NCBI RefSeq assembly: GCF_936981045.1
Contig: NZ_OW441264.1
Coordinates: forward strand, 390,001-422,000
Source: Candidatus Saccharimonadota bacterium
Lineage (GTDB): Bacteria > Bacteroidota > Bacteroidia > Cytophagales > Amoebophilaceae
Reading direction: 5' to 3'
Length of the DNA stretch: 32,000 bases
Below are positions 284 through 22,487 of this stretch, piece after piece. The position numbers were made by a program, and so were the translations under genes. The notes below the pieces were generated by a model. The model did not search any database. It was given only the letters and a program-made list of their open reading frames with translations, and was not told the origin of the DNA. Position 1 is the first letter of the stretch; each line of letters begins with the position of its first letter.

Positions 284-1116
284 GGTTCTGTCGCGTCTAT
301 AGTTTTTTTAGTATAGGTTTTTCGTTTAAGTCAAATTTTGGATATTATGCGGCCATTAAGATAGCAAAGTTTTCAAAAGTAGAAAGATGATTTTTAGCTC
401 CTCTTACTTGTCCTTTTTGAATCATACGAATGTTTTCTATCCCTGAAATAGTAATGGAAGCAGAATAAAAATTCTTAAAACCCAGCATAGGTTTTATCCG
501 TTTTTTGATAAACCTATGATCTTGTTCAACTCTATTATTCAAATATTTGTTTTGCAATATTTGAATGGTATGATCTTGATCAAGATCTGTATTGATCGCA
601 TCAAGGGCAGCTTTATTACTACCGCTTTTGTCAATTACTACTTTCTTAGGAATATTATTTTCTGTGATCGCCTTTCGAAAAAAAGAAAGCGTTGAAGACT
701 TGTCTCTATGCTCAGATAGAAAAAAGTCAACTGTATCACCATAACGATCTACTGCTCTATATAAATAGATCCACTTCCCGTTTAGTTTAACATAGGTTTC
801 ATCCATTCTCCAACTACTACCAACTGGTCGTTTTCTTTTTCTTACTGCTTTATCTATCAGAGGAACAAACTTAATAACCCATCTCTGTAGCGTAGAATGA
901 TCAACTCTTGCGCCTCTCATACGCATCATCTCTTCCAAATCTCTATAGCTCAAGGAAAAACGACACTTCATGTATACAAATAACAGGATGACTTCTGATG
1001 AAGAACAATAACCTTTAAAATATGGTAATAACTCGGGAGAAATATTAAACATAATAACTACTTTTTTAAATACCGATACTAAAATAATCATTTTTTAGAA
1101 TAAACGCGACAGAACC
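284..1116 (-). mobile_element. IS6-family (IS26-like) insertion sequence, copy 1, 833 bp
   Basis: Bounded by GGTTCTGTCGCGT (284) and its reverse complement ACGCGACAGAACC (ending 1116). Single transposase ORF. Same length and ends as the copies at 3779, 19024 and 21655. Differs from them by about 5 substitutions. Confidence 0.92.
345..1091 (-). CDS. IS6-family DDE transposase (true start probably the internal MFNISPELL Met at 1052, giving ~235 aa)
   Basis: 248-aa ORF. HTH-like N-terminus (DLEEMMRMRGARVDHSTLQRWV), WRMDETYVK.NGKW.YLYRAVD and a later D/E region typical of IS26-type Tnp. Size matches IS6-family transposases. Confidence 0.9.
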   Translation of the reverse strand: MIILVSVFKKVVIMFNISPELLPYFKGYCSSSEVILLFVYMKCRFSLSYRDLEEMMRMRGARVDHSTLQRWVIKFVPLIDKAVRKRKRPVGSSWRMDETYVKLNGKWIYLYRAVDRYGDTVDFFLSEHRDKSSTLSFFRKAITENNIPKKVVIDKSGSNKAALDAINTDLDQDHTIQILQNKYLNNRVEQDHRFIKKRIKPMLGFKNFYSASITISGIENIRMIQKGQVRGAKNHLSTFENFAILMAA

Positions 1117-3407: not shown

Positions 3408-3778
3408 GGGTCTTTTGTTTTAAGTGTGTAAATATATTTCGGATTATATATTTAGATAAACTAAAATACTTAAAACAATGAAAAGAAAAGAGACAGTTAA
3501 AGATGGGATAAGCAAGTCCATAGATGTACTGATAGACTCAGGTGTAGAGCTATCGACCCTATTTGATCAAGGCGGCTTACTCAAACAATTAAGGAAATGT
3601 CTTGTAGAAAAAGCATTAGCATCAGAAATGGATAACCATTTAGATTATAACAAATATGCAGGTAGTGATTCAGATAATGCTCATAATGACTTGTCTAGTA
3701 AGCAAATTATCACTGATAATGGGGTTATATCGGTTGAGGTCCCTAGAGATAGATTATCCACTTTTGAACCTGTTTTAT
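3408..3778 (+). pseudogene. IS256-family 5' fragment (IRL plus first ~100 codons of the transposase), truncated by IS6 copy 2
   Basis: Near-identical to 11475-11845 of the intact copy. The ORF at 3478 reads MKRKETVKDGISK...STFEPVL, then runs into the IS6 repeat at 3779. Confidence 0.9.
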
Positions 3779-4611
3779 GGTTCTGTCGCGTCTATAGTTT
3801 TCTTAGTATAGGTTTTTCGTTTAAGTCAAATTTTGGATATTATGCGGCCATTAAGATAGCAAAGTTCTCAAAAGTAGAAAGATGATTTTTAGCTCCTCTT
3901 ACTTGTCCTTTTTGAATCATACGAATGTTTTCTATCCCTGAAATAGTAATGGAAGCAGAATAAAAATTCTTAAAACCCAGCATAGGTTTTATCCGTTTTT
4001 TGATAAACCTATGATCTTGTTCAACTCTATTATTCAAATATTTGTTTTGCAATATTTGAATGGTATGATCTTGATCAAGATCTGTATTGATCGCGTCAAG
4101 GGCAGCTTTATTACTACCGCTTTTGTCAATTACTACTTTCTTAGGAATATTATTTTCTGTGATCGCCTTTCGAAAAAAAGAAAGCGTTGAAGACTTGTCT
4201 CTATGCTCAGATAGAAAAAAGTCAACTGTATCACCATAACGATCTACTGCTCTATATAAATAGATCCACTTCCCGTTTAGTTTAACATAGGTTTCATCCA
4301 TTCTCCAACTACTACCAATTGGTCGTTTTCTTTTTCTTACTGCTTTATCTATCAGAGGAACAAACTTAATAACCCATCTCTGTAGCGTAGAATGATCAAC
4401 TCTTGCGCCTCTCATACGCATCATCTCTTCCAAATCTCTATAGCTCAAGGAAAAACGACACTTCATGTATACAAATAACAGGATGACTTCTGATGAAGAA
4501 CAATAACCTTTAAAATATGGTAATAACTCGGGAGAAATATTAAACATAATAACTACTTTTGTAAATACCGATACTAAAATAATCATTTTTTAGAATAAAC
4601 GCGACAGAACC
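3779..4611 (-). mobile_element. IS6-family insertion sequence, copy 2, 833 bp
   Basis: Same terminal repeats and offsets as copy 1. Transposase translation identical to copies 3 and 4. Confidence 0.92.
3840..4586 (-). CDS. IS6-family DDE transposase
   Basis: 248-aa ORF identical to those at 19085 and 21680. Confidence 0.9.
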   Translation of the reverse strand: MIILVSVFTKVVIMFNISPELLPYFKGYCSSSEVILLFVYMKCRFSLSYRDLEEMMRMRGARVDHSTLQRWVIKFVPLIDKAVRKRKRPIGSSWRMDETYVKLNGKWIYLYRAVDRYGDTVDFFLSEHRDKSSTLSFFRKAITENNIPKKVVIDKSGSNKAALDAINTDLDQDHTIQILQNKYLNNRVEQDHRFIKKRIKPMLGFKNFYSASITISGIENIRMIQKGQVRGAKNHLSTFENFAILMAA

Positions 4612-4878: not shown

Positions 4879-5991
4879 AGATGCTCCTAAAAGTCTTCTC
4901 TTAACTGCTAAGAAGTTACTTTCAGCTTAGAAAGGTACCCATCAATATAGCAAGTATAGTCCCTAAGAATAGCAAACACTTTTCTAATCAGTTTATTAGC
5001 GACAGCAATAAGCGCCACTTTCCCAGGTTTTCTTCTGGCTTTTAATCTCTCATAAAATGTTTTACACGCCTTATTAAACCGTATAGCAGACCAAGAAGCC
5101 ATATAGAGCAAAGAACGCAGCTGGGAGTTCCCATGACGGTTGATATGCCCCTTCTTCCTTATGGAAGAGCCTGAATGCTCATAACTAGGAGCTAAGCCAA
5201 TGAACTTAGAGAACTGTTTGGCCCTTTGAAAATGCTGCCCCCCTCCAGTGGAAACAATAAGCTGCAGAGCGGTTCTATCTCCAATGCCCTTAATAGAACT
5301 AATGCGCTTATAGAGCTCATTATAGCTCTCCTGGGTGATAGAAAGCATTTGTTGCTCCAGAAGCTCTATCTGTTCTTCCAGGCAGGCTATAGTTTCCTTG
5401 AGTGTTCTTAAGGCGAAGTCATCTGCTTGAGGCAACACATTAAAAGACTCTAGCAGATTATAGAACATAATAAGTTGTTTTTTTAGCTGAACAAGAAGCT
5501 TTTTTTGTTGATTTAACCCTTGTATATTTTGGGGAAGCATTCTGTAAGGGGCAGGCTGCATCTTTTCTCCATAAAGGGCAATAAGTTAGGCATCTACCTT
5601 ATCGGTTTTGGTTATAACTAGCATCATCCGAGCAAAATGTTTGATTTGCTTGGGATTGACCATCGACACAACTATTTCATGCTCTGTAAGTATCTGCAGT
5701 AATAAAGCGCCATAGTTGTCTGTGACTTCTAAGACACAGTGATGCGTTGTTTTATCAAGTTGAGCTAAAAAGGTTTCAATTCCTTTGGGATCATTCTTAT
5801 AGGTGATAGTAGGTATCCTTTCTCTTGGGGAAAAGCTGCTACAAAGCTGCTTTTTCCTAGGTCAATGCCTATGTATTTCATAACTTATTATATATATACT
5901 ATATCAATTCATCTTTTAAACTAGCGTCGCATATACAGGCTTTAAGGCCTACCGAACTATTCAGTTTTTAAGATGAAAGATCTGAGGGCTC
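4879..5991 (-). mobile_element. IS110-family element (decayed) inserted in an IS3 element; boundaries +/- ~15 bp
   Basis: Contains an IS110-type transposase gene and a ~100-nt non-coding left end homologous to 28013-28108. IS3 sequence resumes on both sides. Confidence 0.75.
4908..5881 (-). pseudogene. IS110-family (DEDD) transposase, inactivated by a 1-nt deletion and an in-frame TAA
   Basis: N-terminus MKYIGIDLGKSSF... is homologous to the ORF at 28109, but GGATACCTACTATCACC lacks one base relative to GGATACCGTACCATCACC. ..KTDKVDA*LIALYGE carries a stop. C-terminal 217-aa ORF has IKGIGDRTALQLI...F.GLAP...SG and the LIAVANKLIR tail typical of IS110 Tnp. Confidence 0.85.
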
Positions 5992-6198: not shown

Positions 6199-8274
6199 CT
6201 AACAGGTGCCTTCACAGAGCTGTAATGCCTGGTTAGCTGCCTGTACTAATTCTTCTACGATTTTAGCATTCAAATATTTCTTACCAAGTTCAATATCTAT
6301 CGTAAGGGTTTCTTGGGCCATATATTTTACCTCGTCCAGTTGGATATAATCTTTGGCATGACGTAAATCATAAAGTCGTTCAGCAAATTTAATGCAAAGT
6401 ACGTAAAGTTGTTCTCGGTTGATGATTCGTTTGAGACGATTACCCACATAGAGTCCAGATGGCTCCATCTCTTCACGTTTATTGACTGCTACAATACTTT
6501 CTACAAAACGATAGGCTTCCACACTATAATTGGCTTTAATATAAGCAAGTGGTAAACCTGCATAACGTACTAAGCCATACAGCACACTGAAATAAACTAT
6601 CCTTGATTGGTAAGGCACCCATTCTGCTACTAATTGGGCAATACCTAACGCACGTACATAAAGTAATTGTCCTGATGCGTGCCGCCTAAAACCATAACAA
6701 CGCCGTACCAGGAAAAAAAGCTCATCTAATACAATCGTACGCACATCAGCCATCGTGCAAAAACTATTATAGGCTTGCGTTAATGTTACCATAGACGCCT
6801 TAAATTCTCTATAGGAAATAGAAACATCTGAAGGTGGTATTCTGGAAATCATTTCATCCCGTACAGCAGCTGCATTACAAGGCACCACTATAAGCATAGA
6901 TCTTTTAGGAGAAGCCGGAAATTGTAAGTAACCATAGTGGATACGAACGATTCTTTCTATGTTTCGTTTTTCTATATTGGTCCACTCTCCTTCTTCTTGC
7001 ATCACATTGTGCCAATTAAACTCACTACCTACTGTAACATCTTGATAAGCACTTTTAATTGTAGGCAAGGCTTCCTCAGACATAGCAGCATTACTAATGA
7101 CTAGAGCTATAGCAGGAAAGCACACATCTGTAGTATATCTCTCTTCGGAAGGGTCCCTTGGCTCATATTTTAAACAGGTGGTATATAATTGAATGCGTAC
7201 AAACCGATCTTTTGAAGCATCTAGGCTGGCAAGACTTAAAATAACAGGACGCAATAAACAGACCAGCTGGTTTGCATCACATATGATCTTTTGAGGCAGC
7301 TTATCACCTTTGGTCTCTATGACCAACTTTGGCATAGCGCGCGCACTACTTTCAAACTCTAGCGAAACTTCTAACCTTCGGATCAGCTCATCAAGGCTTA
7401 CTTCAATTGGTAGCAAAATGATATGATTGTCAGACTTGGCCCGTTGTTTTAGAAAAATATCCCAAATGACAAAATTCTTGGTAATGATATCTAAATCTTC
7501 TTTATAAAGCGGCCTATCATCTAAATAGGAAATAAAATTTGTGACCTCTTTCATTGTTTGATCTATAGAAGCGTACACTCCCTTTGGATTATTACGAACC
7601 GCCCCTAGGTCCGAGTATAAGCAAGACTCTGTTTGCCTTTGTTCCTGCTCTTCTCTTTGTTGTTCTTCTATTTTATTTTTTAAATAGTAGTCATGATATT
7701 TATAGCCAGCTAGCTTACGCTTATTATAAGCAATAATAAAAAAAATCATTGGGCTTAATCCCAGAAAGGATATTAAGAAACCACTTGATGCCAACAGTTG
7801 CTCCGTGCCCATGTTATAAATGACGTAAAAGAGCACTAATAATGTAAAGAAGACTAGCTTCATGCCTATATACAAGGGCAATACAAATAAGGTTACAGCC
7901 AAATGGGCTATAGATAAGGCTAACGCAAAAGCAGATGGAGGTTGAGTCAGACCTGACCAATTCCAAAGCACATTTATAGGAAGACAAAAAACTACACTCA
8001 TTAACCAACGTCGCCCAATTTTCCAGGATGGAATTTCTTTCTTAGAATCGATTGCATAACCTATAAGCGAAATAGCCGTAATAAATTGAAGTAGGTACCA
8101 GTAGATAAAGCGATCATTTATATAATCTAATACAGTAGTGCATATAACATAACACCCCATACATCCCATTATAGCATCACTTGGCTTAAGCTTAGCCAAC
8201 CTTTCTTTTGTAAAAGAAGATTTCAGCAACAACAAGATTAATATTGTAACAAAAGGTAGAATATTAAATGACAT
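6199..8274 (-). CDS. multi-pass membrane protein, paralog 1 (P1): TM region, coiled-coil linker, degenerate histidine-kinase-like core, degenerate RelA/SpoT-HD-like C-terminus (hypothetical)
   Basis: 691-aa ORF with ATG start. About six hydrophobic helices in residues 1-185. EEQQREEQEQRQ linker. Collinear homology to the 724-aa ORF at 12930 throughout. Domain calls are by-eye motif alignment (see findings). Confidence 0.85.
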   Translation of the reverse strand: MSFNILPFVTILILLLLKSSFTKERLAKLKPSDAIMGCMGCYVICTTVLDYINDRFIYWYLLQFITAISLIGYAIDSKKEIPSWKIGRRWLMSVVFCLPINVLWNWSGLTQPPSAFALALSIAHLAVTLFVLPLYIGMKLVFFTLLVLFYVIYNMGTEQLLASSGFLISFLGLSPMIFFIIAYNKRKLAGYKYHDYYLKNKIEEQQREEQEQRQTESCLYSDLGAVRNNPKGVYASIDQTMKEVTNFISYLDDRPLYKEDLDIITKNFVIWDIFLKQRAKSDNHIILLPIEVSLDELIRRLEVSLEFESSARAMPKLVIETKGDKLPQKIICDANQLVCLLRPVILSLASLDASKDRFVRIQLYTTCLKYEPRDPSEERYTTDVCFPAIALVISNAAMSEEALPTIKSAYQDVTVGSEFNWHNVMQEEGEWTNIEKRNIERIVRIHYGYLQFPASPKRSMLIVVPCNAAAVRDEMISRIPPSDVSISYREFKASMVTLTQAYNSFCTMADVRTIVLDELFFLVRRCYGFRRHASGQLLYVRALGIAQLVAEWVPYQSRIVYFSVLYGLVRYAGLPLAYIKANYSVEAYRFVESIVAVNKREEMEPSGLYVGNRLKRIINREQLYVLCIKFAERLYDLRHAKDYIQLDEVKYMAQETLTIDIELGKKYLNAKIVEELVQAANQALQLCEGTC

Positions 8275-8485
8275 TATGACCTTTTAATAAAATCAAATCA
8301 AAAACCAAAAATTATACTAAATTGTCCCAGAGAACGGGCCAGAGGCTAATTATAAAACCAAGTTTCAAGTATAGAACGTTCTATGATCTTACCCAAGATA
8401 TAAAAAGCCTACGTAGCCCTAATATATGAAATAAAACTTGAGCCATAAAAAGCGGATCATTACTTACTTTTTCCAATTAAATTAA

Positions 8486-8493
8486 TACATTTG
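8486..8493 (+). promoter_or_regulatory. candidate Bacteroidota-type -7 promoter element (TACATTTG = TAnnTTTG) upstream of tRNA-Gln
   Basis: Exact TAnnTTTG match 22 nt upstream of the tRNA 5' end. No clean TTTG -33 partner seen. Confidence 0.3.
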
Positions 8494-8514
8494 TAGTTGT
8501 ATGCAGTCAGTTAC

Positions 8515-8586
8515 TGTCCGGTAGTGTAACGGCAACACGTCTGGTTTTGGTCCAGAAGACTCTAGGTTCGACCCCTAGCCGGACAA
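8515..8586 (+). tRNA. tRNA-Gln (anticodon TTG)
   Basis: TGTCCGG-TA-GTGT-AACGGCA-ACAC-G-TCTGG-TTTTGGT-CCAGA-AGACT-CTAGG-TTCGACC-CCTAG-CCGGACA-A, a complete cloverleaf with a 7-nt anticodon loop around TTG. Confidence 0.92.
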
Positions 8587-8623
8587 CTTCCAGAACAACG
8601 CTCATACTAAATTAATAATTAAG

Positions 8624-9973
8624 ATGTTAGGTTTGAATTATAATCGTGGGTTAATAAGATTGGGGTTGTTTTTTTTCACATTATTAGTCACGCATCATAT
8701 AGGATTCGCAAAAGAGGAAAAAGGTAAGAAGGTGGCTATTGTATCCCCTACAATGCAAAAAAAAGCCTCTGATGTTGATCATTCTAACGCTGCCAGTAAA
8801 GCCAAGCTAAAAAGTGATCTAGAAGCAGAAAACGCGCTTAATCGAGCACGCTTGGAAAAACAGCTTTCAACTATTATTGCTCAAATTGAGCAGCTTCGTC
8901 TTAAAAAAGAACTTCAGCGCTTGAATAAGGAGATAGAGGATGACAACGCGCGAGAAGCGCATGATAAAGCTATGCTTTTGCTAAATATGGAAAGAGAAAA
9001 GGTGACCATCGAACTAGAGCTAGCAAAAGCTAGATTTATGAAGCAAATGGAGCAGTATGATACCCAGTTAATCACATTAGATAAAAAGATACAATTAGAA
9101 AAAGGGCAAACGCAACTGTTGCAAGAGACCAGCCACCGGTTGCAAGCAGAAATGGGGGCCTTGCAAGCTAAAATAGCACGAGATAACTATATCCAAAAAA
9201 AGCCTATTTACCTGAAAGACCCATTGATCAAACGAAGCAATACTTTAGTCCTCTCTGATCGATATATTCAACTAAATGGTTCCATTACACCCTGGAAAGC
9301 AAATTATATTGTAGATCAAATTCACTATTTTAACAACAAAAATAGTCAGTATCCTATATTTCTTATCATTGGTTATTCCCCAGGCGGATGGGTATCCGCA
9401 GGGTGGAATATTCTACAAGCAATAGAGCATAGTAAAGCACCTGTCTATGTGGTCGTAAAAGCATTCGCTGCTTCTATGGCCGCTTTGATTACTACATTGG
9501 CTACTAAATCTTATGCTTATCCAAATGCTGAAATCCTACATCATCACCCCGGAATAAAAAATTTTTTTGGTAGATTAAATCTAAGAGAAACAAAAGAGAT
9601 GTATGAGGACCTTAAGGAAACATGGAACCGTTTAGGGGGTAGAGTAGCCAGAAAAATGGGCATATCACTTGCAGCATTTGAGAAAAAGCTCTATGAGAAG
9701 TCTATGTATGGAGACTGGATGGAGTATGGTGACAATGCTAAAAAGCTTAAATGGGTCGATTATGTGATCAGTGGTATACAACATAGTGCGGTGAGCAGCT
9801 TACCAGATCCAACTGACTATACTTTTGAACAATTTATAAAGCAGTACGGCTTTGGTGAAGCAAAAGGAAAAGAACCATCTGAAGAGTGGTATTGCCATGC
9901 ACTAGCGCCCCACGATTTTGACTATAGCTACAGGCCTACTAATAGAAAATCTCAGATAATGGGTAAGCAATAA
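8624..9973 (+). CDS. signal-anchored ClpP-fold (S14-like) serine protease with a long N-terminal coiled coil
   Basis: Hydrophobic N-terminus (LIRLGLFFFTLLVTHHIGFA). Heptad-rich residues ~60-190. Residues ~210-385 align by eye with ClpP: IQLNGSIT...ANYIVDQI, YSPGGWVSAG (ClpP INSPGGSVTAG), AFAASMAA (GQAASMGA, catalytic Ser284), YPNAEILHHHP (LPNSRIMIHQP, His307), GDW..YGDNAKKLKWVDYVI (Asp364 region). Confidence 0.8.
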   Translation: MLGLNYNRGLIRLGLFFFTLLVTHHIGFAKEEKGKKVAIVSPTMQKKASDVDHSNAASKAKLKSDLEAENALNRARLEKQLSTIIAQIEQLRLKKELQRLNKEIEDDNAREAHDKAMLLLNMEREKVTIELELAKARFMKQMEQYDTQLITLDKKIQLEKGQTQLLQETSHRLQAEMGALQAKIARDNYIQKKPIYLKDPLIKRSNTLVLSDRYIQLNGSITPWKANYIVDQIHYFNNKNSQYPIFLIIGYSPGGWVSAGWNILQAIEHSKAPVYVVVKAFAASMAALITTLATKSYAYPNAEILHHHPGIKNFFGRLNLRETKEMYEDLKETWNRLGGRVARKMGISLAAFEKKLYEKSMYGDWMEYGDNAKKLKWVDYVISGIQHSAVSSLPDPTDYTFEQFIKQYGFGEAKGKEPSEEWYCHALAPHDFDYSYRPTNRKSQIMGKQ

Positions 9974-10186
9974 GTTTGATAGCTATCATCTTGTTGGTGA
10001 TATGGTTATTACTTAGTGTTCCATTTAAATAGCCACCATCTGTAAAGGTGTTTTACCTAGTATAGGTGGTTAACAAAGTTATATACCTACAATAGGCTAA
10101 AAAACGCTTCCCACTTTCTGCTACAGATAGGTGGTCATACCATTTATCAAAAGTGCAACAATTATTCAAACATTCAAATAGTAAAT

Positions 10187-10386
10187 GCGTGAGTTCGGGA
10201 TTTATTTGACTGATTTACAACAATTTAATATCAATTATTTAGTTAATATTTGCACCTATTTAACAAGTTTTTATATCTAATTTTATAAATATAATATATA
10301 TAATAAACTGATTACCAGAATTATTTGTTATTCAACTACCTATTTAACTGTCTATAAAACAAATTTTATAAATTTTCATTGATATT
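10187..10386 (+). mobile_element. MITE copy 2, left part (split by the IS982 insertion)
   Basis: GCGTGAGTTCGGGATTTATTTGACTG... is collinear with 26166-26365. It is interrupted after ..TTCATTGATATT by the IS982 left end. Confidence 0.88.
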
Positions 10387-11388
10387 ACGTGAGTTCGGGA
10401 TTAGCTTGTTAAAAAATAGCTTTAAAAAGCTTCTTTGTGTTTTAAATTTGGAGATAAAAAAATACTAACCAGATTATCCAAAGGAGCCAGTTATGAATGT
10501 AGAAAAGTTAGTTGAAATATATTATGCTGTTAATGAATTTCTCATAAAGTTTATGCCGTATATGGAAAAACAACTGTTAACCAACTCTAAAAGAAAACCC
10601 ACTAGAACTTGTTCATTAACTTTGAGTGAAATAATGACTGTTCTTATTGCCTTTCATGTGATTGGTTTTAGAAATTTTAAGTCTTATTATATTCATTTAC
10701 AGCAATTTCATTCTAGTAAATTTGGAAAGTTAGTGAGCTACAATAGATTTATAGAACTGATCCAAAGAACGTTAGTTCCCTTGTACTGTTTTACACAAAG
10801 TCTTTCTAAAACAAAAACAGGTTGTTATTTTATGGATGCAACAGCCATCAAGGTTTGCCATATCAAAAGAGCCTATACGCACAGGGTTTTTAAATCGATT
10901 GCTACTAAAGGTGAAACCAGCACCGGTTGGTTTTTTGGATTAAAGTTGCACTTGATAGTCAATGGTTTAGGAGAAATTATGAATTTTCAACTGACCACAG
11001 GTAAAACTAATGATAGGCTTCCTGTAGAAAATTTATGTAAACACTTGATGGGTAAAATGTTTGCCGATAAAGGTTACATAAGCAAAGATTTATTTAAAAA
11101 ACTGATCGAGAAAGGCGTGGAACTCATTACCCAGATTAGAAAAAATATGAAAAATGCTTTTATGCCACTCTGGGATAAACTGATGCTTAGAAAACGATCT
11201 ATAATTGAAACTATTATAGATCAGCTCAAAAATATTAGCCAGATAGAACATTCCAGGCATAGAAGCATACCTAATTTTCTAGTCAATTTGATAACTGGAA
11301 TTACAGCTTATGCACTAAAAGAGAAAAAACCTTCTATAACTAATATATATATGACTGGTTCACAATACGTCTAATCCCGAACTGAGGT
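10387..11388 (+). mobile_element. IS982-family insertion sequence, intact, 1002 bp, inserted inside a MITE
   Basis: Ends ACGTGAGTTCGGGATTAG... and ...CTAATCCCGAACTGAGGT (imperfect TIR). Flanked by a duplicated TGATATT of the host MITE. Single 293-aa transposase ORF. Confidence 0.9.
10493..11374 (+). CDS. IS982-family DDE transposase
   Basis: 293 aa. The N-terminal ..EIYYAV.EF......KRKPTRTCSLTLSEIMT..IAFH...FRNFK.YY pattern and C-terminal ADKGY.S..L...L...G..L.T..RKNMK....I.E.....LKN...IEHSRHRS are typical of IS982 Tnp. Confidence 0.9.
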   Translation: MNVEKLVEIYYAVNEFLIKFMPYMEKQLLTNSKRKPTRTCSLTLSEIMTVLIAFHVIGFRNFKSYYIHLQQFHSSKFGKLVSYNRFIELIQRTLVPLYCFTQSLSKTKTGCYFMDATAIKVCHIKRAYTHRVFKSIATKGETSTGWFFGLKLHLIVNGLGEIMNFQLTTGKTNDRLPVENLCKHLMGKMFADKGYISKDLFKKLIEKGVELITQIRKNMKNAFMPLWDKLMLRKRSIIETIIDQLKNISQIEHSRHRSIPNFLVNLITGITAYALKEKKPSITNIYMTGSQYV

Positions 11389-11435
11389 TGATATTGATTA
11401 TCAAATGAAAAAATAATCTAATCCCGAACTCAGGT
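11389..11435 (+). mobile_element. MITE copy 2, right part
   Basis: TGATATTGATTATCAAATGAAAAAATAATCTAATCCCGAACTCAGGT continues the MITE. The whole split MITE is flanked by a 5-bp repeat TAAAT (10182-10186 and 11436-11440). Confidence 0.88.
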
Positions 11436-11474
11436 TAAATGATTAAGCTCAAATAGCAGATTTTTTACAAATTC

Positions 11475-12816
11475 GGGTCTTTTGTTTTAAGTGTGTAAAT
11501 ATATTTCGGGTTATATATTTAGATAAACTAAAATACTTAAAACAATGAAAAGAAAAGAGACAGTTAAAGATGGGATAAGCAAGGCCATAGATGTACTGAT
11601 AGACTCAGGTGTAGAGCTATCGACCCTATTTGATCAAGACGGCTTACTCAAACAATTAAGCAAACGTCTTGTAGAAAAAGCATTAGCATCAGAAATGGAT
11701 AACCATTTAGATTATAACAAGTATGCAGGTAGTGATTCAGATAATGCTCGTAATGACTTGTCTAGTAAGCAAATTATCACTGATAATGGGGTTATATCGG
11801 TTGAGGTCCCTAGAGATAGATCATCCACTTTTGAACCTGTTTTATTACCTAAGCGTCAAACAAGAATACCTGGTTTAGATAATAAGATCTTATCTCTATA
11901 TGCTAAAGGCATGAGCCTATCAGATATTCAGATTCAAATACAAGAGTTATATGGCGCAGAAGTTAGTGAAAGCCTGATAAGTAACATCACAGATGCTGTT
12001 ATCAAAGATGTTAAAATATGGCAAAATCGTCCCTTAGAGTCGGTTTATCCTATCGTTTTTTTTGATTGTTTTGTAGTTAAAGTTAGACAGGATAAGCGCA
12101 TAAGCAATAAATCAGTCTACGTTGCGTTAGGTATAGATAGATTGGGCATGCAAGATGTTTTAGGTCTTTGGATGAGTGAAAATGCAGGAGCTAAATTTTG
12201 GTTGGGGAATTTAACAGAACTCAAAAATCGTGGCATGCACGATATACTCATTGCGTGTACAGATAATTTGCCAGGTATGTCTGAGGCCATTACTGCTGTA
12301 CACCCGAAAACGGAACATCAGCTCTGTATTGTTCATGCCATTAGGAATAGCTTGCAATATGTTTCTTATAAACATAGAAAGGCATTAGTTGCTGATTTAA
12401 AACCAGTTTATACTGCAGTTACTGAAGAAGAAGCATTGATGGCCTTAGAAGCTTTTGCTACCAAGTGGAATCAACAATACCCACAAATAGCCAAATCTTG
12501 GTATGCTAACTGGGATAATTTGATGGTATTTTTACAATACCCTAGTGCCATACGTAGAGTGATTTACACAACAAATGCTGTTGAATCTGTAAATAGTCAA
12601 TTCCGTAGAGTTACCAAAAATAAAAGGGTATTTCCTAACGATCTAGCTGTTTTTAAAACATTGTATCTAACTATTAATTACATGACTAGAAAGTGGACCA
12701 TCCCTATTCATAATTGGAGTGAGGCTATGGCACATTTTTTAATTAAATTAGAAAATAGAATCTAATAAACCAAAAAAATAATTTACACACTTAATTGGAC
12801 AGATCCGGACAGAGCC
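11475..12816 (+). mobile_element. IS256-family insertion sequence, intact copy
   Basis: IRL GGGTCTTTTGTTTTAAGTGTGTAAAT versus the reverse complement of the right end ..ATTTACACACTTAATTGGACAG... Right terminus is tandemly doubled (GGACAGATCC GGACAGAGCC). Flanks ACAAATTC / ACAAATTA look like an 8-bp target duplication. Confidence 0.88.
11545..12765 (+). CDS. IS256-family (Mutator-type) transposase
   Basis: 406 aa. ..LLKQL.K.LVEKAL..EMD.HL.Y.KY...., PKRQTRIPG.D.KILSLYAKGMS..DI, VFFDC..VKVR, LGLW....EGAKFW...L.ELKNRG..DILIAC.D.L.G, YP....Q.CIVH..RNS, TTNA.ES.N...R are canonical IS256 family motifs. Confidence 0.92.
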   Translation: MKRKETVKDGISKAIDVLIDSGVELSTLFDQDGLLKQLSKRLVEKALASEMDNHLDYNKYAGSDSDNARNDLSSKQIITDNGVISVEVPRDRSSTFEPVLLPKRQTRIPGLDNKILSLYAKGMSLSDIQIQIQELYGAEVSESLISNITDAVIKDVKIWQNRPLESVYPIVFFDCFVVKVRQDKRISNKSVYVALGIDRLGMQDVLGLWMSENAGAKFWLGNLTELKNRGMHDILIACTDNLPGMSEAITAVHPKTEHQLCIVHAIRNSLQYVSYKHRKALVADLKPVYTAVTEEEALMALEAFATKWNQQYPQIAKSWYANWDNLMVFLQYPSAIRRVIYTTNAVESVNSQFRRVTKNKRVFPNDLAVFKTLYLTINYMTRKWTIPIHNWSEAMAHFLIKLENRI

Positions 12817-12929
12817 ACAAATTAAAACTAAAATAGTTGAGTTTATTCTTATAATTTTCCTATAATAGGTAGTTTACCTACATAATATTTTGTAATTCTT
12901 TTTTAAGTAATTTAAAAATTTATTATACG

Positions 12930-15104
12930 ATGTCATTCTATACACCTTTCCTCATGGCATTACCCTTTTTGCTATTGGTTCTAGTGGTGATTTTTTACCT
13001 TAAGCAAATCAAAGCTCCATTTGGGGAGCATAGTCTAAATCACAAACAATTTGCCTATGAAATTAGAGCGATTCAACAAGCTATTACACGTATCAAAAGT
13101 CGCATAAAAAAATCGTTACAATCTGTTTTTATAAAAGAAAAACTGGCCAAATTAAAACCAAGCGATGCTACAATGGGATGTACAGGGTGTTACATTATAC
13201 TTACCACCATACTAGATTACATCATTGGAGGACTGACTATTTATTGGTACATAGTTCAATTTTTTATAGGTATTTGGCTTATAGGTAATGGAATTACACG
13301 CAAAAAAACGGTTCCATCATGGAAAATTGGTCGATCTTGGCTAGTATACACCGTTTTTTGCCTTCCTGTAAATGTATTTTGGCATTGGTTTCATGTGCAA
13401 GATGCTCAATTTACACTAACTTTATCTGTTGGACATTTATCTGCAACTTTATTTGTATTGCCCCTGTATATAAGTATAAAACTCGTAGTCCTTACACTTT
13501 TAATGATCTTTTACGCAATCTATAACATAGGTATAGATCAACTGTTGATGTCAGGGGATTCTTTACTATCTCTATTGGGGTTCGGCTTAATGGTCTTTAG
13601 CATTATTATTTATAATAAACGCAAAATAGCTGCCTATACACTATATAACCGCTACTTAAAAAGTCAAATAAAATTAGCAGAAAACAAGGACCATGCGCCT
13701 ATGCAAACCAACTCCAACTTACATCCAGAAAATGCTCGTAAAAACCCAAAAGAGGCTGGACCTTGTGTAGAAAAAACCATTCAGGACGTTACTGAATTTA
13801 TGTCATATTTAGATACTAGGACTCTTTATCAGCAAGATATCCAAAGTATTATCAAAAATTTTTTCACTTTTACTACTTTTTTAAAGCAACAGGCCAGGTC
13901 TATAGACCACATACCGTTAATACCAAATGAAATTACTATAGATGCATTGATCTCTAAACTAGAGGCTACACTGGAAGCTAGGACCTCACCAGTCCCAAAA
14001 CTGGTGGTAGAAATGAAAAATAATGTTATTCCTAAAAAGATCACATGTGATGTCAATCATATGATCCAATCATTAGTCCCTATTGTTTTACGTACCGCTA
14101 ACCCAGGTAGTTCAAAAGGTGAACGTGTAAACATTCAATTACATGCTACGCACTTAAAATATGCGCAAAAAGGCAAATCGGAAATGAACTTCCCAGCTAT
14201 AGCCCTGGTGATCAGCAGCACTACTATCCCTCTAACCATATTGCCCAAAATTAAAAATTATTATGAGGATATTACAGAAGGAAGAGAGCTTAAGTGGCAC
14301 AGTGGTCAAACAAACTTAGAACGTATACAGGTTGAAAAACATGTCATAGAACGAGCAGTTCGTGCCCATTATGGTTACCTACGCTTCCCTTTTTCCCAAA
14401 AAAGGCCTATAGTGATGGTACTGCCTTATAATGTAGTACAGGTTCGAGATGCAATGATCGACAAAATACTCCCTTTAGATGTTCCTATAAACCAAAAAGA
14501 AATCGATCAATCCATGGAAGTATTTATGAGATCTTATAACCATATTTTAGAAATATGCGAGGCTCGTAAAGCTGTATTAGATGAAATACTTCTATTGATC
14601 AGAAGGTGCTATGGTTTTAGACGCCATCTATCCGGACAATTGTTGTACATCCGTGCGATAGGTATTGCACAATTAGTGACAGAATGGATACGCTTTTATC
14701 CGCAACCCATTTATGGTGTATTACTGTATGACTTAGTGCATCATGCGGATTTACCACTTGCGTATATTAAGGCCAACTATGATATGAATATTTACGCCTT
14801 TATAGAAAGTATTTTAGCAGTAAATGATCGCCAAAGCATGGAGCCATGTGGACTTTATATTGGAAATGCTCTTAAGCAAGTAATCAATCGAGAACAACTT
14901 TTTGTGCTTTGCATTAAATTGGCTGAACGACTTTATGACCTAAGGCATGCTAAAAGCTACACCCATCTAGATGCATTAAAATACATGGCTGAAGAAACCC
15001 TTACAATAGATATTGAATTAGCAAAGAAATATTTGAACACTAAAATCGTAGAAGCATTAACCAATGCAGCAGAACAAGCGCTTCAGGTCTGTGAAAAAAA
15101 ATAA
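12930..15104 (+). CDS. multi-pass membrane protein, paralog 2 (P2): same architecture as P1 with an extra N-terminal helix
   Basis: 724-aa ORF with ATG start. Shared blocks with P1 include KLAKLKPSDA.MGC.GCY, PSWKIGR.WL, LFVLPLYI, NFPAIALVIS, HYGYL.FP, RRCYGFRRH.SGQLLY.RA.GIAQLV.EW, LPLAYIKANY, INREQL.VLCIK.AERLYDLRHAK, ETLTIDIEL.KKYLN.KIVE. Confidence 0.87.
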   Translation: MSFYTPFLMALPFLLLVLVVIFYLKQIKAPFGEHSLNHKQFAYEIRAIQQAITRIKSRIKKSLQSVFIKEKLAKLKPSDATMGCTGCYIILTTILDYIIGGLTIYWYIVQFFIGIWLIGNGITRKKTVPSWKIGRSWLVYTVFCLPVNVFWHWFHVQDAQFTLTLSVGHLSATLFVLPLYISIKLVVLTLLMIFYAIYNIGIDQLLMSGDSLLSLLGFGLMVFSIIIYNKRKIAAYTLYNRYLKSQIKLAENKDHAPMQTNSNLHPENARKNPKEAGPCVEKTIQDVTEFMSYLDTRTLYQQDIQSIIKNFFTFTTFLKQQARSIDHIPLIPNEITIDALISKLEATLEARTSPVPKLVVEMKNNVIPKKITCDVNHMIQSLVPIVLRTANPGSSKGERVNIQLHATHLKYAQKGKSEMNFPAIALVISSTTIPLTILPKIKNYYEDITEGRELKWHSGQTNLERIQVEKHVIERAVRAHYGYLRFPFSQKRPIVMVLPYNVVQVRDAMIDKILPLDVPINQKEIDQSMEVFMRSYNHILEICEARKAVLDEILLLIRRCYGFRRHLSGQLLYIRAIGIAQLVTEWIRFYPQPIYGVLLYDLVHHADLPLAYIKANYDMNIYAFIESILAVNDRQSMEPCGLYIGNALKQVINREQLFVLCIKLAERLYDLRHAKSYTHLDALKYMAEETLTIDIELAKKYLNTKIVEALTNAAEQALQVCEKK

Positions 15105-19023: not shown

Positions 19024-19856
19024 GGTTCTGTCGCGTCTATAGTTTTCTTAGTATAGGTTTTTCGTTTAAGTCAAATTTTGGATATTATGCGGCCATTAAG
19101 ATAGCAAAGTTCTCAAAAGTAGAAAGATGATTTTTAGCTCCTCTTACTTGTCCTTTTTGAATCATACGAATGTTTTCTATCCCTGAAATAGTAATGGAAG
19201 CAGAATAAAAATTCTTAAAACCCAGCATAGGTTTTATCCGTTTTTTGATAAACCTATGATCTTGTTCAACTCTATTATTCAAATATTTGTTTTGCAATAT
19301 TTGAATGGTATGATCTTGATCAAGATCTGTATTGATCGCGTCAAGGGCAGCTTTATTACTACCGCTTTTGTCAATTACTACTTTCTTAGGAATATTATTT
19401 TCTGTGATCGCCTTTCGAAAAAAAGAAAGCGTTGAAGACTTGTCTCTATGCTCAGATAGAAAAAAGTCAACTGTATCACCATAACGATCTACTGCTCTAT
19501 ATAAATAGATCCACTTCCCGTTTAGTTTAACATAGGTTTCATCCATTCTCCAACTACTACCAATTGGTCGTTTTCTTTTTCTTACTGCTTTATCTATCAG
19601 AGGAACAAACTTAATAACCCATCTCTGTAGCGTAGAATGATCAACTCTTGCGCCTCTCATACGCATCATCTCTTCCAAATCTCTATAGCTCAAGGAAAAA
19701 CGACACTTCATGTATACAAATAACAGGATGACTTCTGATGAAGAACAATAACCTTTAAAATATGGTAATAACTCGGGAGAAATATTAAACATAATAACTA
19801 CTTTTGTAAATACCGATACTAAAATAATCATTTTTTAGAATAAACGCGACAGAACC
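19024..19856 (-). mobile_element. IS6-family insertion sequence, copy 3, 833 bp
   Basis: Same ends and offsets as the other copies. Confidence 0.92.
19085..19831 (-). CDS. IS6-family DDE transposase
   Basis: 248-aa ORF identical to 3840-4586 and 21680-22426. Confidence 0.9.
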   Translation of the reverse strand: MIILVSVFTKVVIMFNISPELLPYFKGYCSSSEVILLFVYMKCRFSLSYRDLEEMMRMRGARVDHSTLQRWVIKFVPLIDKAVRKRKRPIGSSWRMDETYVKLNGKWIYLYRAVDRYGDTVDFFLSEHRDKSSTLSFFRKAITENNIPKKVVIDKSGSNKAALDAINTDLDQDHTIQILQNKYLNNRVEQDHRFIKKRIKPMLGFKNFYSASITISGIENIRMIQKGQVRGAKNHLSTFENFAILMAA

Positions 19857-21654: not shown

Positions 21655-22487
21655 GGTTCTGTCGCGTTTATTCTAAAAAATGATTATTTTAGTATCGGTA
21701 TTTACAAAAGTAGTTATTATGTTTAATATTTCTCCCGAGTTATTACCATATTTTAAAGGTTATTGTTCTTCATCAGAAGTCATCCTGTTATTTGTATACA
21801 TGAAGTGTCGTTTTTCCTTGAGCTATAGAGATTTGGAAGAGATGATGCGTATGAGAGGCGCAAGAGTTGATCATTCTACGCTACAGAGATGGGTTATTAA
21901 GTTTGTTCCTCTGATAGATAAAGCAGTAAGAAAAAGAAAACGACCAATTGGTAGTAGTTGGAGAATGGATGAAACCTATGTTAAACTAAACGGGAAGTGG
22001 ATCTATTTATATAGAGCAGTAGATCGTTATGGTGATACAGTTGACTTTTTTCTATCTGAGCATAGAGACAAGTCTTCAACGCTTTCTTTTTTTCGAAAGG
22101 CGATCACAGAAAATAATATTCCTAAGAAAGTAGTAATTGACAAAAGCGGTAGTAATAAAGCTGCCCTTGACGCGATCAATACAGATCTTGATCAAGATCA
22201 TACCATTCAAATATTGCAAAACAAATATTTGAATAATAGAGTTGAACAAGATCATAGGTTTATCAAAAAACGGATAAAACCTATGCTGGGTTTTAAGAAT
22301 TTTTATTCTGCTTCCATTACTATTTCAGGGATAGAAAACATTCGTATGATTCAAAAAGGACAAGTAAGAGGAGCTAAAAATCATCTTTCTACTTTTGAGA
22401 ACTTTGCTATCTTAATGGCCGCATAATATCCAAAATTTGACTTAAACGAAAAACCTATACTAAGAAAACTATAGACGCGACAGAACC
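21655..22487 (+). mobile_element. IS6-family insertion sequence, copy 4, 833 bp (opposite orientation)
   Basis: GGTTCTGTCGCGTTTATTCT... at 21655 and ...ATAGACGCGACAGAACC ending 22487. Confidence 0.92.
21680..22426 (+). CDS. IS6-family DDE transposase
   Basis: 248-aa ORF identical to copies 2 and 3. Confidence 0.9.
   Translation: MIILVSVFTKVVIMFNISPELLPYFKGYCSSSEVILLFVYMKCRFSLSYRDLEEMMRMRGARVDHSTLQRWVIKFVPLIDKAVRKRKRPIGSSWRMDETYVKLNGKWIYLYRAVDRYGDTVDFFLSEHRDKSSTLSFFRKAITENNIPKKVVIDKSGSNKAALDAINTDLDQDHTIQILQNKYLNNRVEQDHRFIKKRIKPMLGFKNFYSASITISGIENIRMIQKGQVRGAKNHLSTFENFAILMAA

What the first reader, a model, noticed from the sequence alone, without database searches (positions are those of the whole stretch)
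6199..15104. Head-to-head paralogous membrane proteins bracketing a ClpP-fold protease: candidate undescribed membrane signalling/proteolysis module
P1 (6199-8274, minus) and P2 (12930-15104, plus) are collinear paralogs. Each has about six TM helices with conserved blocks (KLAKLKPSDA.MGC.GCY, PSWKIGR.W, LFVLPLYI), then a charged linker, then a ~220-aa kinase-like core, then a ~170-aa RSH-hydrolase-like C-terminus. They are transcribed divergently. The only non-mobile genes between them are tRNA-Gln and a signal-anchored ClpP-fold serine protease. If the MITE/IS982/IS256 insertions at 10187-12816 are removed, the protease lies about 330 bp upstream of P2 on the same strand, compatible with a former operon. 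Nucleotide identity in the 3' coding region is only roughly three quarters by eye, so this is an old, maintained duplication. Both copies kept full-length ORFs in a region where many other genes have decayed. I do not recognise this domain combination or gene trio as a described system.
Basis: partly seen in the sequence, partly recalled or inferred. Interest (0 to 1): 0.8.

Follow-up and report, generated by a model that had tools for sequence, protein, structure and literature searches.

The report
Catalytically dead transporter-kinase-SpoT relics in Cardinium
The two paralogous membrane proteins are real and conserved, but they are shortened, catalytically dead members of a multi-copy "symporter / histidine-kinase-like / SpoT-hydrolase" family already noted in Cardinium and Amoebophilus, and nothing shows that they work with the ClpP-like protease between them.

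Summary
The window comes from the Cardinium endosymbiont of Oedothorax gibbosus. P1 (691 aa) and P2 (724 aa) are collinear paralogs with 53% identity. Each has 7 TM helices, a histidine-kinase-like DHp/CA core and a RelA/SpoT-hydrolase-like C-terminus. They flank tRNA-Gln and a ClpP-fold gene.

The "undescribed signalling/proteolysis module" reading is not supported.
- P1 and P2 belong to an Amoebophilaceae multi-copy family. Its full-length members (about 1150 aa) are Na+/solute symporter (SSF) + 6 TM + degenerate kinase + RelA/SpoT hydrolase.
- The family descends from genuine SSF-fused histidine kinases.
- P1 and P2 have lost the SSF domain. They have no phospho-acceptor His and no N, G1 or G2 ATP-binding boxes.
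- Of the six RelSeq hydrolase catalytic positions, P1 keeps none and P2 keeps only Asp78 (H53→R, H77→Y, E81/D82→H/H or R/Y, D144→E).
- Both genes are still under purifying selection (dN/dS 0.18-0.31 overall, 0.09-0.19 in the hydrolase-like domain).

They are therefore maintained double pseudoenzymes, probably regulatory or nucleotide-binding subunits.

The ClpP-like protein belongs to a much wider family of apparently exported proteins, found in Bacteroidota, Verrucomicrobiota and Elusimicrobiota without any P gene. The trio is conserved only in one Cardinium clade. Old local synteny plus local duplication explains it adequately.

The parts
6199..8274 (-). P1, 691 aa: SSF-less, catalytically degenerate member of the SSF / kinase-like / RSH-hydrolase family
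   Evidence: ORF. 53% identity to P2. Orthologs lie at the same position in Cardinium loci. dN/dS between orthologs is 0.22-0.29.
7726..8274 (-). P1 membrane domain (residues 1-183), 7 TM helices, N-terminus out and C-terminus in
   Evidence: Hydropathy and Lys/Arg counts in the loops. Homologous to the 6-TM block that follows the SSF domain in full-length members.
6841..7548 (-). P1 histidine-kinase-like DHp/CA domain (residues about 243-478), without catalytic motifs
   Evidence: Collinear alignment with genuine SSF-fused kinases P0355-7. The H-box His and the N, G1 and G2 boxes are absent.
6202..6840 (-). P1 RelA/SpoT-hydrolase-like domain (residues 479-691), pseudo-hydrolase
   Evidence: Pfam HD_4 at E 1.2e-3. 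Mapping to RelSeq: H53→R541, H77→Y566, D78→G567, E81→R570, D82→Y571, D144→E632.
8515..8587 (+). tRNA-Gln(ttg)
   Evidence: ARAGORN. The same tRNA lies directly upstream of the ClpP-like gene in Cardinium loci and in the Amoebophilaceae MAG loci L017 and L021.
8624..9973 (+). Apparently exported coiled-coil + ClpP-fold serine protease, 449 aa. Signal-like N-terminus at residues 1-30, long helix at 59-189, ClpP fold at about 196-400.
   Evidence: Pfam CLP_protease E 4.6e-20. AF2 mean pLDDT 79. Foldseek to ClpP 6cfd at E 1e-15, TM-score 0.8 normalised to the target. Ser284 and His307 are invariant in 62 homologs.
10382..11440 (+). IS982-type insertion
   Evidence: Pfam DDE_Tnp_1_3 E 1e-68. Inverted repeats I1.
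11474..12807 (+). IS256-type insertion
   Evidence: Pfam Transposase_mut E 3.5e-112. Inverted repeats I2.
12930..15104 (+). P2, 724 aa: paralog of P1 with the same architecture plus an N-terminal remnant
   Evidence: ORF. 100% identical to P0001 from the Cardinium endosymbiont of Oedothorax gibbosus. dN/dS between orthologs is 0.18-0.31.
12930..13634 (+). P2 membrane domain (residues 1-235): 7 TM helices plus a basic amphipathic helix. It matches the last part of the SSF domain and the 6-TM block.
   Evidence: AF2 helices. P2 orthologs align from profile positions about 434-471 onward.
13785..14465 (+). P2 histidine-kinase-like DHp/CA domain (residues 286-512), pseudokinase
   Evidence: Foldseek hits to RetS, ZraS, HK853, CckA and DivL. 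Motif losses shown.
14466..15101 (+). P2 RelA/SpoT-hydrolase-like domain (residues 513-724), pseudo-hydrolase
   Evidence: Pfam HD_4 at E 1.5e-3. Mapping to RelSeq: H53→R575, H77→Y600, D78 kept as D601, E81→H604, D82→H605, D144→E666. dN/dS 0.09-0.15.

Best explanation
**What is shown.** P1 and P2 are two anciently duplicated members of a multi-copy family centred on the Amoebophilaceae. The family descends from membrane histidine kinases fused to a Na+/solute symporter (SSF/SLC5) domain. Full-length members (about 1110-1250 aa) consist of an SSF transporter, a 6-TM block, a degenerate DHp/CA kinase core and a RelA/SpoT-type (p)ppGpp hydrolase domain.

P1 and P2 have lost the SSF domain. They keep the last SSF helix, the 6-TM block, the kinase-like core and the hydrolase-like domain. 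They have no phospho-acceptor His and no ATP-binding boxes. At the six RelSeq hydrolase catalytic positions P1 keeps none and P2 keeps only Asp78. Purifying selection persists and is strongest on the dead hydrolase domain.

**What is inferred.** They act as membrane-tethered pseudoenzymes. The DHp-like helical hairpin would mediate dimerisation, with each other, with SSF-fused paralogs or with stand-alone SSF transporters. The remodelled nucleotide pocket still has RelSeq R44, S46 and G47, so it may bind a nucleotide such as (p)ppGpp without hydrolysing it. In this way P1 and P2 would regulate or scaffold transporter-coupled alarmone or nutrient signalling.

**The protease.** The ClpP-like gene encodes a separate, apparently exported protease. 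Its adjacency to P1 and P2 reflects an old local gene order (tRNA-Gln followed by the protease gene, with a family member nearby) plus local duplication. It does not indicate a dedicated module.
For: **Family membership and full-length architecture.** An exhaustive profile search found 147 hits. They include proteins of about 1150 aa that carry the whole P architecture at residues about 480-1180. Pfam finds SSF and HD_4 in these proteins. NCBIfam matches their C-termini to TIGR00691 spoT_relA at E 6e-45. The closest solved structure is RelSeq 1vj7 at E 6e-32.

**Canonical versus degenerate hydrolase motifs.** Canonical members keep SGEPFYLHP / LLHDxxEDT / KLADRLHNMRT. P1, P2 and their close paralogs do not. 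The residue mapping holds across 26 sequences.

**Kinase origin.** Foldseek matches of the P2 model are almost all histidine kinases. The family profile hits ThkA at 4e-6. It also aligns collinearly over SSF, the TM block, DHp and the start of CA (profile positions 2-843) with genuine SSF-HisKA-HATPase_c kinases (score 588). The catalytic motifs are present only in the genuine kinases.

**Order of events.** The tree places P1 and P2 as sister clades inside the degenerate clade. SSF-fused degenerate forms branch next, and canonical forms lie outside.

**Selection.** dN/dS values are.

**Protease independence.** The ClpP-like family has more than 529 homologs and occurs in Verrucomicrobiota, Elusimicrobiota and other phyla. 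It is not linked to a P gene in the loci, nor in most loci. The conserved tRNA-Gln next to the protease gene is shown.

**Literature.** PMC6232779, PMC3153485 and PMC12039267 report the spoT/symporter expansion.
Against: - There are no experimental data. The regulatory or nucleotide-binding role is inference only.
- The replacement residues (R575, Y600, E666, Y669, D670 in P2 numbering) are conserved in 25 or 26 of 26 sequences. They could form a different active site rather than a dead one.
- The AF2 model is weak overall (mean pLDDT 63.5, pTM 0.33) and poor over residues 513-590.
- A family member lies within 10 kb of the ClpP-like gene in four different arrangements: the Cardinium trio, L017, L021/L022 and the Roseivirga locus L024. 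This could hint at a functional link that I cannot exclude.
- I could not check whether this genome has a canonical-hydrolase paralog or any (p)ppGpp synthetase.
Confidence: 0.7

Rival explanations
1. One reading: P1, the ClpP-fold protease and P2 form a dedicated membrane signalling/proteolysis module. The protease and P2 would be co-transcribed, and the protease would process or be controlled by the P proteins.
For: - The trio is conserved in every locus of one Cardinium clade that I examined (the window, L001-L005 and L011-L016).
- The protease-to-P2 gap is 259-308 bp on the same strand, with no predicted + strand terminator.
- A family member lies within 10 kb of the protease gene in L017, L021/L022 and the Roseivirga locus L024.
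Against: - The protease family is present without any P gene in Verrucomicrobiota, Elusimicrobiota and other phyla.
- It is unlinked to P genes in A. asiaticus 5a2, in the C. hertigii 1.19-Mb genome (GCA_003176915.1), in the Tipula Cardinium and in several Amoebophilaceae MAGs.
- The single short homolog P0025 is not next to a protease gene.
- The protease carries a signal-peptide-like N-terminus, so it is probably periplasmic. P1 and P2 expose only loops of 3-10 residues on that side.
- The trio sits inside a larger syntenic block (DHFR-dnaN-hydrolase-epimerase).
- The family is multi-copy (18 in Amoebophilus per PMC6232779; at least 13 on the 1.19-Mb C. hertigii chromosome). Chance proximity to any given gene is therefore not rare.
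Confidence: 0.12
2. P1 and P2 are still enzymes. The conserved R/Y/E/Y/D replacements in the hydrolase-like domain would form a new active site acting on a different substrate, so the proteins are neofunctionalised hydrolases rather than pseudoenzymes.
For: - Constraint is strongest on this domain (dN/dS 0.09-0.19).
- The replacement residues are conserved in 25 or 26 of 26 sequences, and RelSeq R44, S46 and G47 are retained.
Against: - Three of the four HD-superfamily metal ligands are replaced in both proteins (H53, H77, D144). The fourth, D78, is also lost in the P1 clade.
- The catalytic E81/D82 pair differs between the P1 type (R/Y) and the P2 type (H/H or H/Y). From established knowledge of RelSeq and Mesh1 structure and function, this argues against metal-dependent phosphohydrolysis.
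Confidence: 0.15
3. P1 and P2 are decaying relics with no function, like the many symporter/HD fragments reported in other Cardinium genomes.
For: - Fragments of this family are abundant in the Cardinium of Tyrophagus putrescentiae (PMC12039267).
- The cBtQ1 ortholog of P1 is split into two ORFs.
- The N-terminus of the P2 ortholog in L001 is split.
Against: - Full-length ORFs are kept in at least 8 strains for each paralog.
- dN/dS is 0.18-0.31 overall and 0.09-0.19 in the C-terminal domain.
- There are 92 invariant columns across the 26 sequences.
Confidence: 0.03

Closest known systems
RelA/SpoT-homolog (RSH) hydrolase domain. The 'rickSpo' small-alarmone-hydrolase group, reported as expanded in Ca. 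Amoebophilus asiaticus (Atkinson et al. 2011, PMC3153485), is probably the same family.
   Same: The C-terminal domain of about 200 aa is homologous to the Rel/SpoT HD_4 domain. Canonical family members match RelSeq 1vj7 at E 6e-32 and TIGR00691 at E 6e-45.
   Different: In P1 and P2 the metal ligands and catalytic residues are replaced (H53→R, H77→Y, D144→E, E81/D82 lost; D78 also lost in P1). The domain is tethered to a membrane and kinase-like module instead of standing alone. I did not verify sequence by sequence that the published rickSpo set is this family.
SLC5/SSF-fused sensor histidine kinases ('transceptors': CbrA, CrbS; PMC7918813, PMC13022988) and the Bacteroidota SSF-6TM-HisKA-HATPase_c kinases found here (P0355-7)
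   Same: The family profile aligns collinearly with P0355-7 over SSF, the 6-TM block, DHp and the start of CA (profile positions 2-843). The logic of coupling a transporter to a cytoplasmic output domain is shared.
   Different: P1 and P2 lack the SSF domain, the H-box His and the N, G1 and G2 boxes. No STAC or PAS domain was detected. The output is an RSH-hydrolase-like domain rather than phosphotransfer.
Pseudo-histidine kinases such as DivL and RetS
   Same: They share a DHp/CA fold that is retained for signalling by conformation or interaction rather than by autophosphorylation. Both appear among the Foldseek hits.
   Different: There is no specific sequence relationship. DivL and RetS retain more of the CA nucleotide pocket. 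No partner is known for P1 or P2.
ClpP (MEROPS S14) and exported ClpP-fold proteases (SppA, NfeD, SDH-type)
   Same: The middle gene has a high-confidence ClpP fold with a conserved Ser-His pair.
   Different: It has a signal-like N-terminus, a helix of about 130 residues and a conserved C-terminal tail. No Clp ATPase context was seen. The family is uncharacterised and is annotated as 'ATP-dependent ClpP'.

Membership tests
RSH (RelA/SpoT) hydrolase, HD_4 | Sequence and fold homology to the Rel/SpoT hydrolase domain | tested here: met
   Pfam HD_4 is sub-threshold (E about 1e-3, 19 bits against a cut-off of 27.2). The domain is nevertheless collinear with canonical family members that hit RelSeq at 6e-32. 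The family profile hits Rel structures at 4e-40.
RSH (RelA/SpoT) hydrolase, HD_4 | Mn2+-binding H...HD...D tetrad (RelSeq H53, H77, D78, D144) | tested here: not met
   R575/R541, Y600/Y566, D601/G567, E666/E632 (P2/P1). Across the alignment: R in 26 of 26, Y in 25 of 26, E in 26 of 26.
RSH (RelA/SpoT) hydrolase, HD_4 | Catalytic ED pair (RelSeq E81, D82) | tested here: not met
   H604/H605 in P2 and R570/Y571 in P1.
RSH (RelA/SpoT) hydrolase, HD_4 | (p)ppGpp hydrolysis activity | not testable with these tools
   Needs an enzyme assay.
Sensor histidine kinase (HisKA + HATPase_c) | DHp/CA fold | tested here: met
   Foldseek gives 49 matches at E<=1e-3, almost all histidine kinases or kinase-related sensor proteins. 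The family profile hits ThkA 3a0r at E 4e-6. The region aligns collinearly with P0355-7.
Sensor histidine kinase (HisKA + HATPase_c) | Conserved phospho-acceptor His in the H-box | tested here: not met
   The column aligned to the ThkA and P0355 H-box His is variable and is not His.
Sensor histidine kinase (HisKA + HATPase_c) | N, G1 (DxGxG) and G2 ATP-binding boxes | tested here: not met
   All three are absent in P1, P2 and the whole family, but present in P0355-7. There is no Pfam HisKA or HATPase_c hit at E<=1.
Sodium:solute symporter (SSF/SLC5) | 13-TM SSF transporter domain | tested here: not met
   There is no SSF hit in P1 or P2. They align to the family profile only from position about 434-490 onward. 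The SSF domain is present in full-length paralogs.
Amoebophilaceae SSF / kinase-like / RSH-hydrolase family ('spoT/sodium-solute symporter' expansion) | Collinear homology across the 6-TM block, the kinase-like core and the hydrolase-like domain | tested here: met
   hmmsearch hits run from E 1e-180 to 1e-10 and cover profile positions 9-683.
ClpP (S14) - the middle gene | ClpP fold with catalytic Ser and His | tested here: met
   Pfam E 4.6e-20. Foldseek TM-score 0.80-0.86 normalised to the target, rmsd about 2.2 Å. S284 and H307 are invariant. The Asp171-equivalent D364 is not invariant.
ClpP (S14) - the middle gene | Cytoplasmic tetradecamer working with a Clp ATPase | not testable with these tools
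   The signal-like N-terminus and long helix argue against this. No localisation or oligomer data are available.

The most novel reading that the evidence does not exclude
The family as a whole could be a transporter-gated alarmone-hydrolase system of intracellular Bacteroidota. The SSF domain would sense a host-derived solute. A fossil histidine-kinase core would transmit the signal. The SpoT-like domain would degrade (p)ppGpp. P1 and P2 would be dedicated pseudoenzyme subunits that heterodimerise with the active paralogs or bind the alarmone. The recurrent proximity to the exported ClpP-like gene might then reflect a real envelope-level link.
Probability: 0.15. Interest if true: 0.7.

Novelty: new variant of a known kind. 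Interest (0 to 1): 0.4.

Why it matters
If the inference is right, obligate intracellular Bacteroidota (Amoebophilus, Cardinium) rewired an SSF-fused histidine kinase into a transporter-coupled (p)ppGpp hydrolase. They then kept catalytically dead copies under selection. That would be a clear case of a double pseudoenzyme in a reduced genome, and a possible route by which symbionts couple host nutrient supply to stringent-response signalling. It also corrects database annotation, where these proteins appear as 'hypothetical', 'HD domain protein' or 'PutP', and the neighbouring gene as 'ATP-dependent ClpP'. As a signalling/proteolysis module, the finding itself is not supported.

Tried and rejected
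- The search for related loci with the mixed family alignment A2 failed because no stretch was conserved enough. I used the single genome scan on the ClpP-like alignment instead and searched its flanks locally.
- hhalign of A1 against the single sequence P0355 was insensitive. A local hmmsearch with the family profile gave the answer.
- My first by-eye alignment placed Tyr293 (the SYLD motif) at the H-box His position. Profile alignment to ThkA and P0355 showed that the SYLD motif lies in the DHp hairpin instead, so I dropped that idea.
- My interim claim that all Cardinium members have a degenerate hydrolase was wrong. Cardinium sp. cBcalN2 and many other Cardinium genomes carry canonical members.
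- The 614-aa protein next to the A. asiaticus ClpP-like gene is not P-like.
- The promoter and terminator scans were uninformative, and Bacteroidota promoters are not covered by that tool.
- The TM block shows weak similarity to the membrane domain of DgcE (NCBIfam PRK09776 at E 0.0018; PDB 8wcn at E 0.9). This is too weak to use.

Full report
**Source and observation.** P2 is 100% identical to a hypothetical protein of the Cardinium endosymbiont of Oedothorax gibbosus (Bacteroidota, Amoebophilaceae). Both ORFs are at the stated coordinates. They align collinearly at 53% identity over 673 aa. Between them lie tRNA-Gln(ttg), a 449-aa ORF that matches Pfam CLP_protease at E 4.6e-20, an IS982-type element and an IS256-type element. 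Homology to IS-free relatives resumes at about 12819. In those relatives the protease gene ends 259-308 bp upstream of the P2 ortholog.

**What P1 and P2 are.** Pfam and NCBIfam give only a sub-threshold HD_4 match at the C-terminus. A word-indexed search found 26 homologs, all named ones from Cardinium, falling into P2-like, P1-like and shorter groups.

An exhaustive profile search of 1.84 billion representatives found only 147 hits. Among them are proteins of about 1110-1250 aa that carry the complete P architecture in their C-terminal 680 residues. Their N-terminal 470 residues are a sodium:solute symporter (SSF) domain. The C-termini of the more distant members are bona fide RelA/SpoT hydrolase domains: TIGR00691 positions 2-162 at E 6e-45, and RelSeq 1vj7 at E 6e-32. 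Named members come from Ca. Amoebophilus sp., Amoebophilaceae MAGs and many Cardinium genomes.

This is the 'spoT / sodium glucose cotransporter' gene family reported as expanded in Amoebophilus (18 copies) and present in Cardinium at 7, 3 and 2 copies in cPpe, cEper1 and cBtQ1 (PMC6232779). It has been seen as symporter/HD fragments in the Cardinium of Tyrophagus putrescentiae (PMC12039267). The 'rickSpo' expansion in A. asiaticus in the RSH classification (PMC3153485) is probably the same family, but I did not check this sequence by sequence. I found no functional study of the family.

**The middle domain.** The AF2 model of P2 (mean pLDDT 63.5; about 80 over residues 330-510) gives 49 Foldseek PDB matches at E<=1e-3. 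The 50 best listed are almost all histidine-kinase DHp/CA regions or kinase-related sensor proteins, including RetS, ZraS, HK853, CckA, CusS and DivL. The family-wide profile hits the ThkA kinase at E 4e-6.

A search seeded with a canonical Cardinium member also recovered genuine SSF-HisKA-HATPase_c kinases of 920-931 aa (P0355-7). The family profile aligns with them in one collinear stretch across SSF, the 6-TM block, DHp and the start of CA (profile positions 2-843, score 588). In that alignment the real kinases show the H-box His, the N-box, G1 (DEGIGIP) and G2 (GGRGIGL). Every member of the P family lacks all four and keeps only the AH(Y/G)G and LP motifs. The domain is a fossil kinase.

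**The C-terminal domain.** Using the P0197-RelSeq alignment for numbering, canonical members keep R44, H53, H77-D78, E81-D82, D144 and N148. The mapping in P2/P1 is:
- H53 → R575/R541
- H77 → Y600/Y566
- D78 → D601/G567
- E81 → H604/R570
- D82 → H605/Y571
- D144 → E666/E632
- N148 → D670/D636

R, E, Y(669) and D(670) occur in 26 of 26 aligned sequences, and Y600 in 25 of 26. RelSeq R44, S46 and G47 are retained. By established knowledge of the HD superfamily, this excludes the normal metal-dependent hydrolysis. A nucleotide-phosphate-binding pocket could still exist; that is inference.

The same replacements occur in a third short paralog type (P0147/P0025) and in SSF-fused degenerate paralogs (P0296, P0154, P0148).

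**History.** A neighbour-joining tree places the P1 and P2 clades as sisters. Next come the short P0147 type, then the SSF-fused degenerate forms, with canonical SSF-fused forms outside. The likely order of events is:
1. An SSF-fused kinase existed.
2. Kinase motifs were lost and an RSH hydrolase domain was gained.
3. The hydrolase motifs were lost.
4. The SSF domain was lost.
5. Duplication produced P1 and P2 before the sampled Cardinium strains diverged.

P2 orthologs still align to the last part of the SSF domain. This fits a topology with the N-terminus outside, 7 TM helices and the C-terminus inside.

**Selection.** Nei-Gojobori dN/dS between orthologs is 0.22-0.29 for P1 and 0.18-0.31 for P2. 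Comparisons among closer strain pairs extend to about 0.39. The value is lowest in the hydrolase-like domain (0.09-0.19) and highest in the charged linker. P1 against P2 gives 0.35, with dS of about 1, which is saturated. These are maintained genes, not pseudogenes. Occasional lineage-specific disruption does occur: the P1 ortholog in cBtQ1 and the N-terminus of the P2 ortholog in the Dermatophagoides strain are split.

**The ClpP-like gene and the module hypothesis.** The 449-aa protein has three parts: a signal-peptide-like N-terminus that is conserved in homologs, many of which have A-x-A sites; one helix of about 130 residues; and a high-confidence ClpP fold. AF2 gives pLDDT 79. Foldseek to ClpP gives E 1e-15, a TM-score of 0.8 normalised to the target, and rmsd 2.2 Å. 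Ser284 and His307 are invariant in 62 homologs.

Its family is large and wide, spanning Bacteroidota, Verrucomicrobiota, Elusimicrobiota, Omnitrophota and others. I searched 80 species-representative loci with flanks of up to 10 kb on each side (several contigs are shorter). The results were:
- The P1/protease/P2 trio occurs in all 6 loci of one Cardinium clade, in addition to the window, L001 and L004.
- A full-length canonical member lies one gene (lpxD) upstream in an Amoebophilaceae MAG.
- A full-length member lies 4.6 kb downstream on the opposite strand in two related MAGs.
- A true SSF-fused kinase lies 6 kb upstream in a Roseivirga MAG.
- No family member is nearby in A. asiaticus 5a2, in the C. 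hertigii 1.19-Mb genome (GCA_003176915.1), in the Tipula Cardinium, in several other Amoebophilaceae MAGs, or in any of the non-Bacteroidota loci (about 59).

The single short homolog P0025 is not next to a protease gene.

tRNA-Gln lies directly upstream of the protease gene across the Amoebophilaceae, which shows that this is an old syntenic spot. In Cardinium sp. cBcalN2 a canonical SSF-fused member sits convergent on P1, consistent with local duplication at an ancestral locus. The trio is also part of a longer conserved block. The family has many copies per genome: at least 13 on the 1.19-Mb C. hertigii chromosome and 18 in Amoebophilus. Chance proximity is therefore not rare.

Finally, the protease is probably periplasmic, whereas P1 and P2 expose only loops of 3-10 residues on that side. 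I rate a dedicated P/protease module at about 0.12.

**Mechanism (inferred).** Full-length canonical members most plausibly couple the transport state of the SSF domain, through the 6-TM block and the DHp-like helices, to a cytoplasmic alarmone hydrolase. This is analogous in logic to the CbrA/CrbS transceptors (PMC7918813, PMC13022988) but has a different output. P1 and P2 retain the membrane block, the dimerisation-type helices and a remodelled nucleotide pocket under strong constraint. I therefore propose that they act as non-catalytic regulatory or nucleotide-binding subunits. They could pair with each other, with SSF-fused paralogs or with stand-alone SSF proteins; a stand-alone SSF gene directly follows the short paralog in L009. 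Only the domain identities, the motif losses, the phylogeny and the selective constraint are shown. The rest is inference.

**Verdict.** The proteins are a new, catalytically dead, truncated variant of a known but uncharacterised family. The proteolysis-module idea is not supported. Interest is moderate (0.4). It lies mainly in the family architecture, a transporter / fossil kinase / SpoT hydrolase, and in the conserved double pseudoenzymes.

Noticed in passing
window 8624-9973; loci L011-L090: The ClpP-like protein belongs to a large uncharacterised family with a signal-like N-terminus, a helix of about 130 residues, a ClpP fold and a conserved tail. It occurs in Bacteroidota, Verrucomicrobiota, Elusimicrobiota and Omnitrophota. 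It is annotated everywhere as 'ATP-dependent Clp protease proteolytic subunit'. The NCBI model for this genome (406 aa) starts after the signal-like segment.
   Followed up: partly
window 8515-8587; L011 9888-9960; L017 9843-9915; L021 9816-9889: tRNA-Gln(ttg) lies directly upstream of the ClpP-like gene in Cardinium and in distant Amoebophilaceae MAGs. This is an old conserved gene pair.
   Followed up: partly
P0355-P0357 (metagenomic); L024 1261-4044: Genuine SSF-6TM-HisKA-HATPase_c kinases of 920-931 aa align collinearly with the P family and look like its evolutionary precursor. They have a 6-TM block instead of the STAC/PAS linker of CbrA/CrbS. The Roseivirga protein of this architecture, which shows only a weak HATPase_c match, lies 6 kb from its ClpP-like gene.
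   Followed up: partly
L016 2-2743 (+): Cardinium sp. cBcalN2 has a canonical-hydrolase SSF-fused paralog (RKSGAPYYTHP / LLHDVVEDT / KLADRLHNLRT) convergent on its P1 ortholog. No remnant of it is detectable left of P1 in the window.
   Followed up: yes
L009 9887-11956 and 12126-13601: In a divergent Cardinium the single short P homolog (P0025) is followed directly by a stand-alone SSF gene. That gene is 42% identical to the SSF domain of the fused paralog P0296, so this is a split or permuted arrangement.
   Followed up: no
L012 7445-9566; L001 5633-7803: Lineage-specific damage: the cBtQ1 ortholog of P1 is split into two ORFs, and the N-terminus of the P2 ortholog in the Dermatophagoides/NMK33 strain is split off as a 50-aa ORF.
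   Followed up: no
window 345-1091, 3840-4586, 19085-19831, 21680-22426: There are four near-identical (247-249 of 249 residues) IS6/IS240-type transposase ORFs in the window. There are also an IS110-type ORF at 4908-5561 and an IS256 fragment at 3478-3885. IS density is very high.
   Followed up: partly
P0343-P0347 (Cardinium of Nabis limbatus and others): Family members of about 960 aa have the SSF domain and cover about 78% of the canonical query, with no Pfam HD domain on record. This looks like another truncation variant of the family.
   Followed up: no
P1 residues 36-233 (window about 7576-8169): The TM block shows weak similarity to the membrane domain of the diguanylate cyclase DgcE (NCBIfam PRK09776 at E 0.0018; PDB 8wcn at E 0.9). 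It may be a distant MASE1-like relationship.
   Followed up: no
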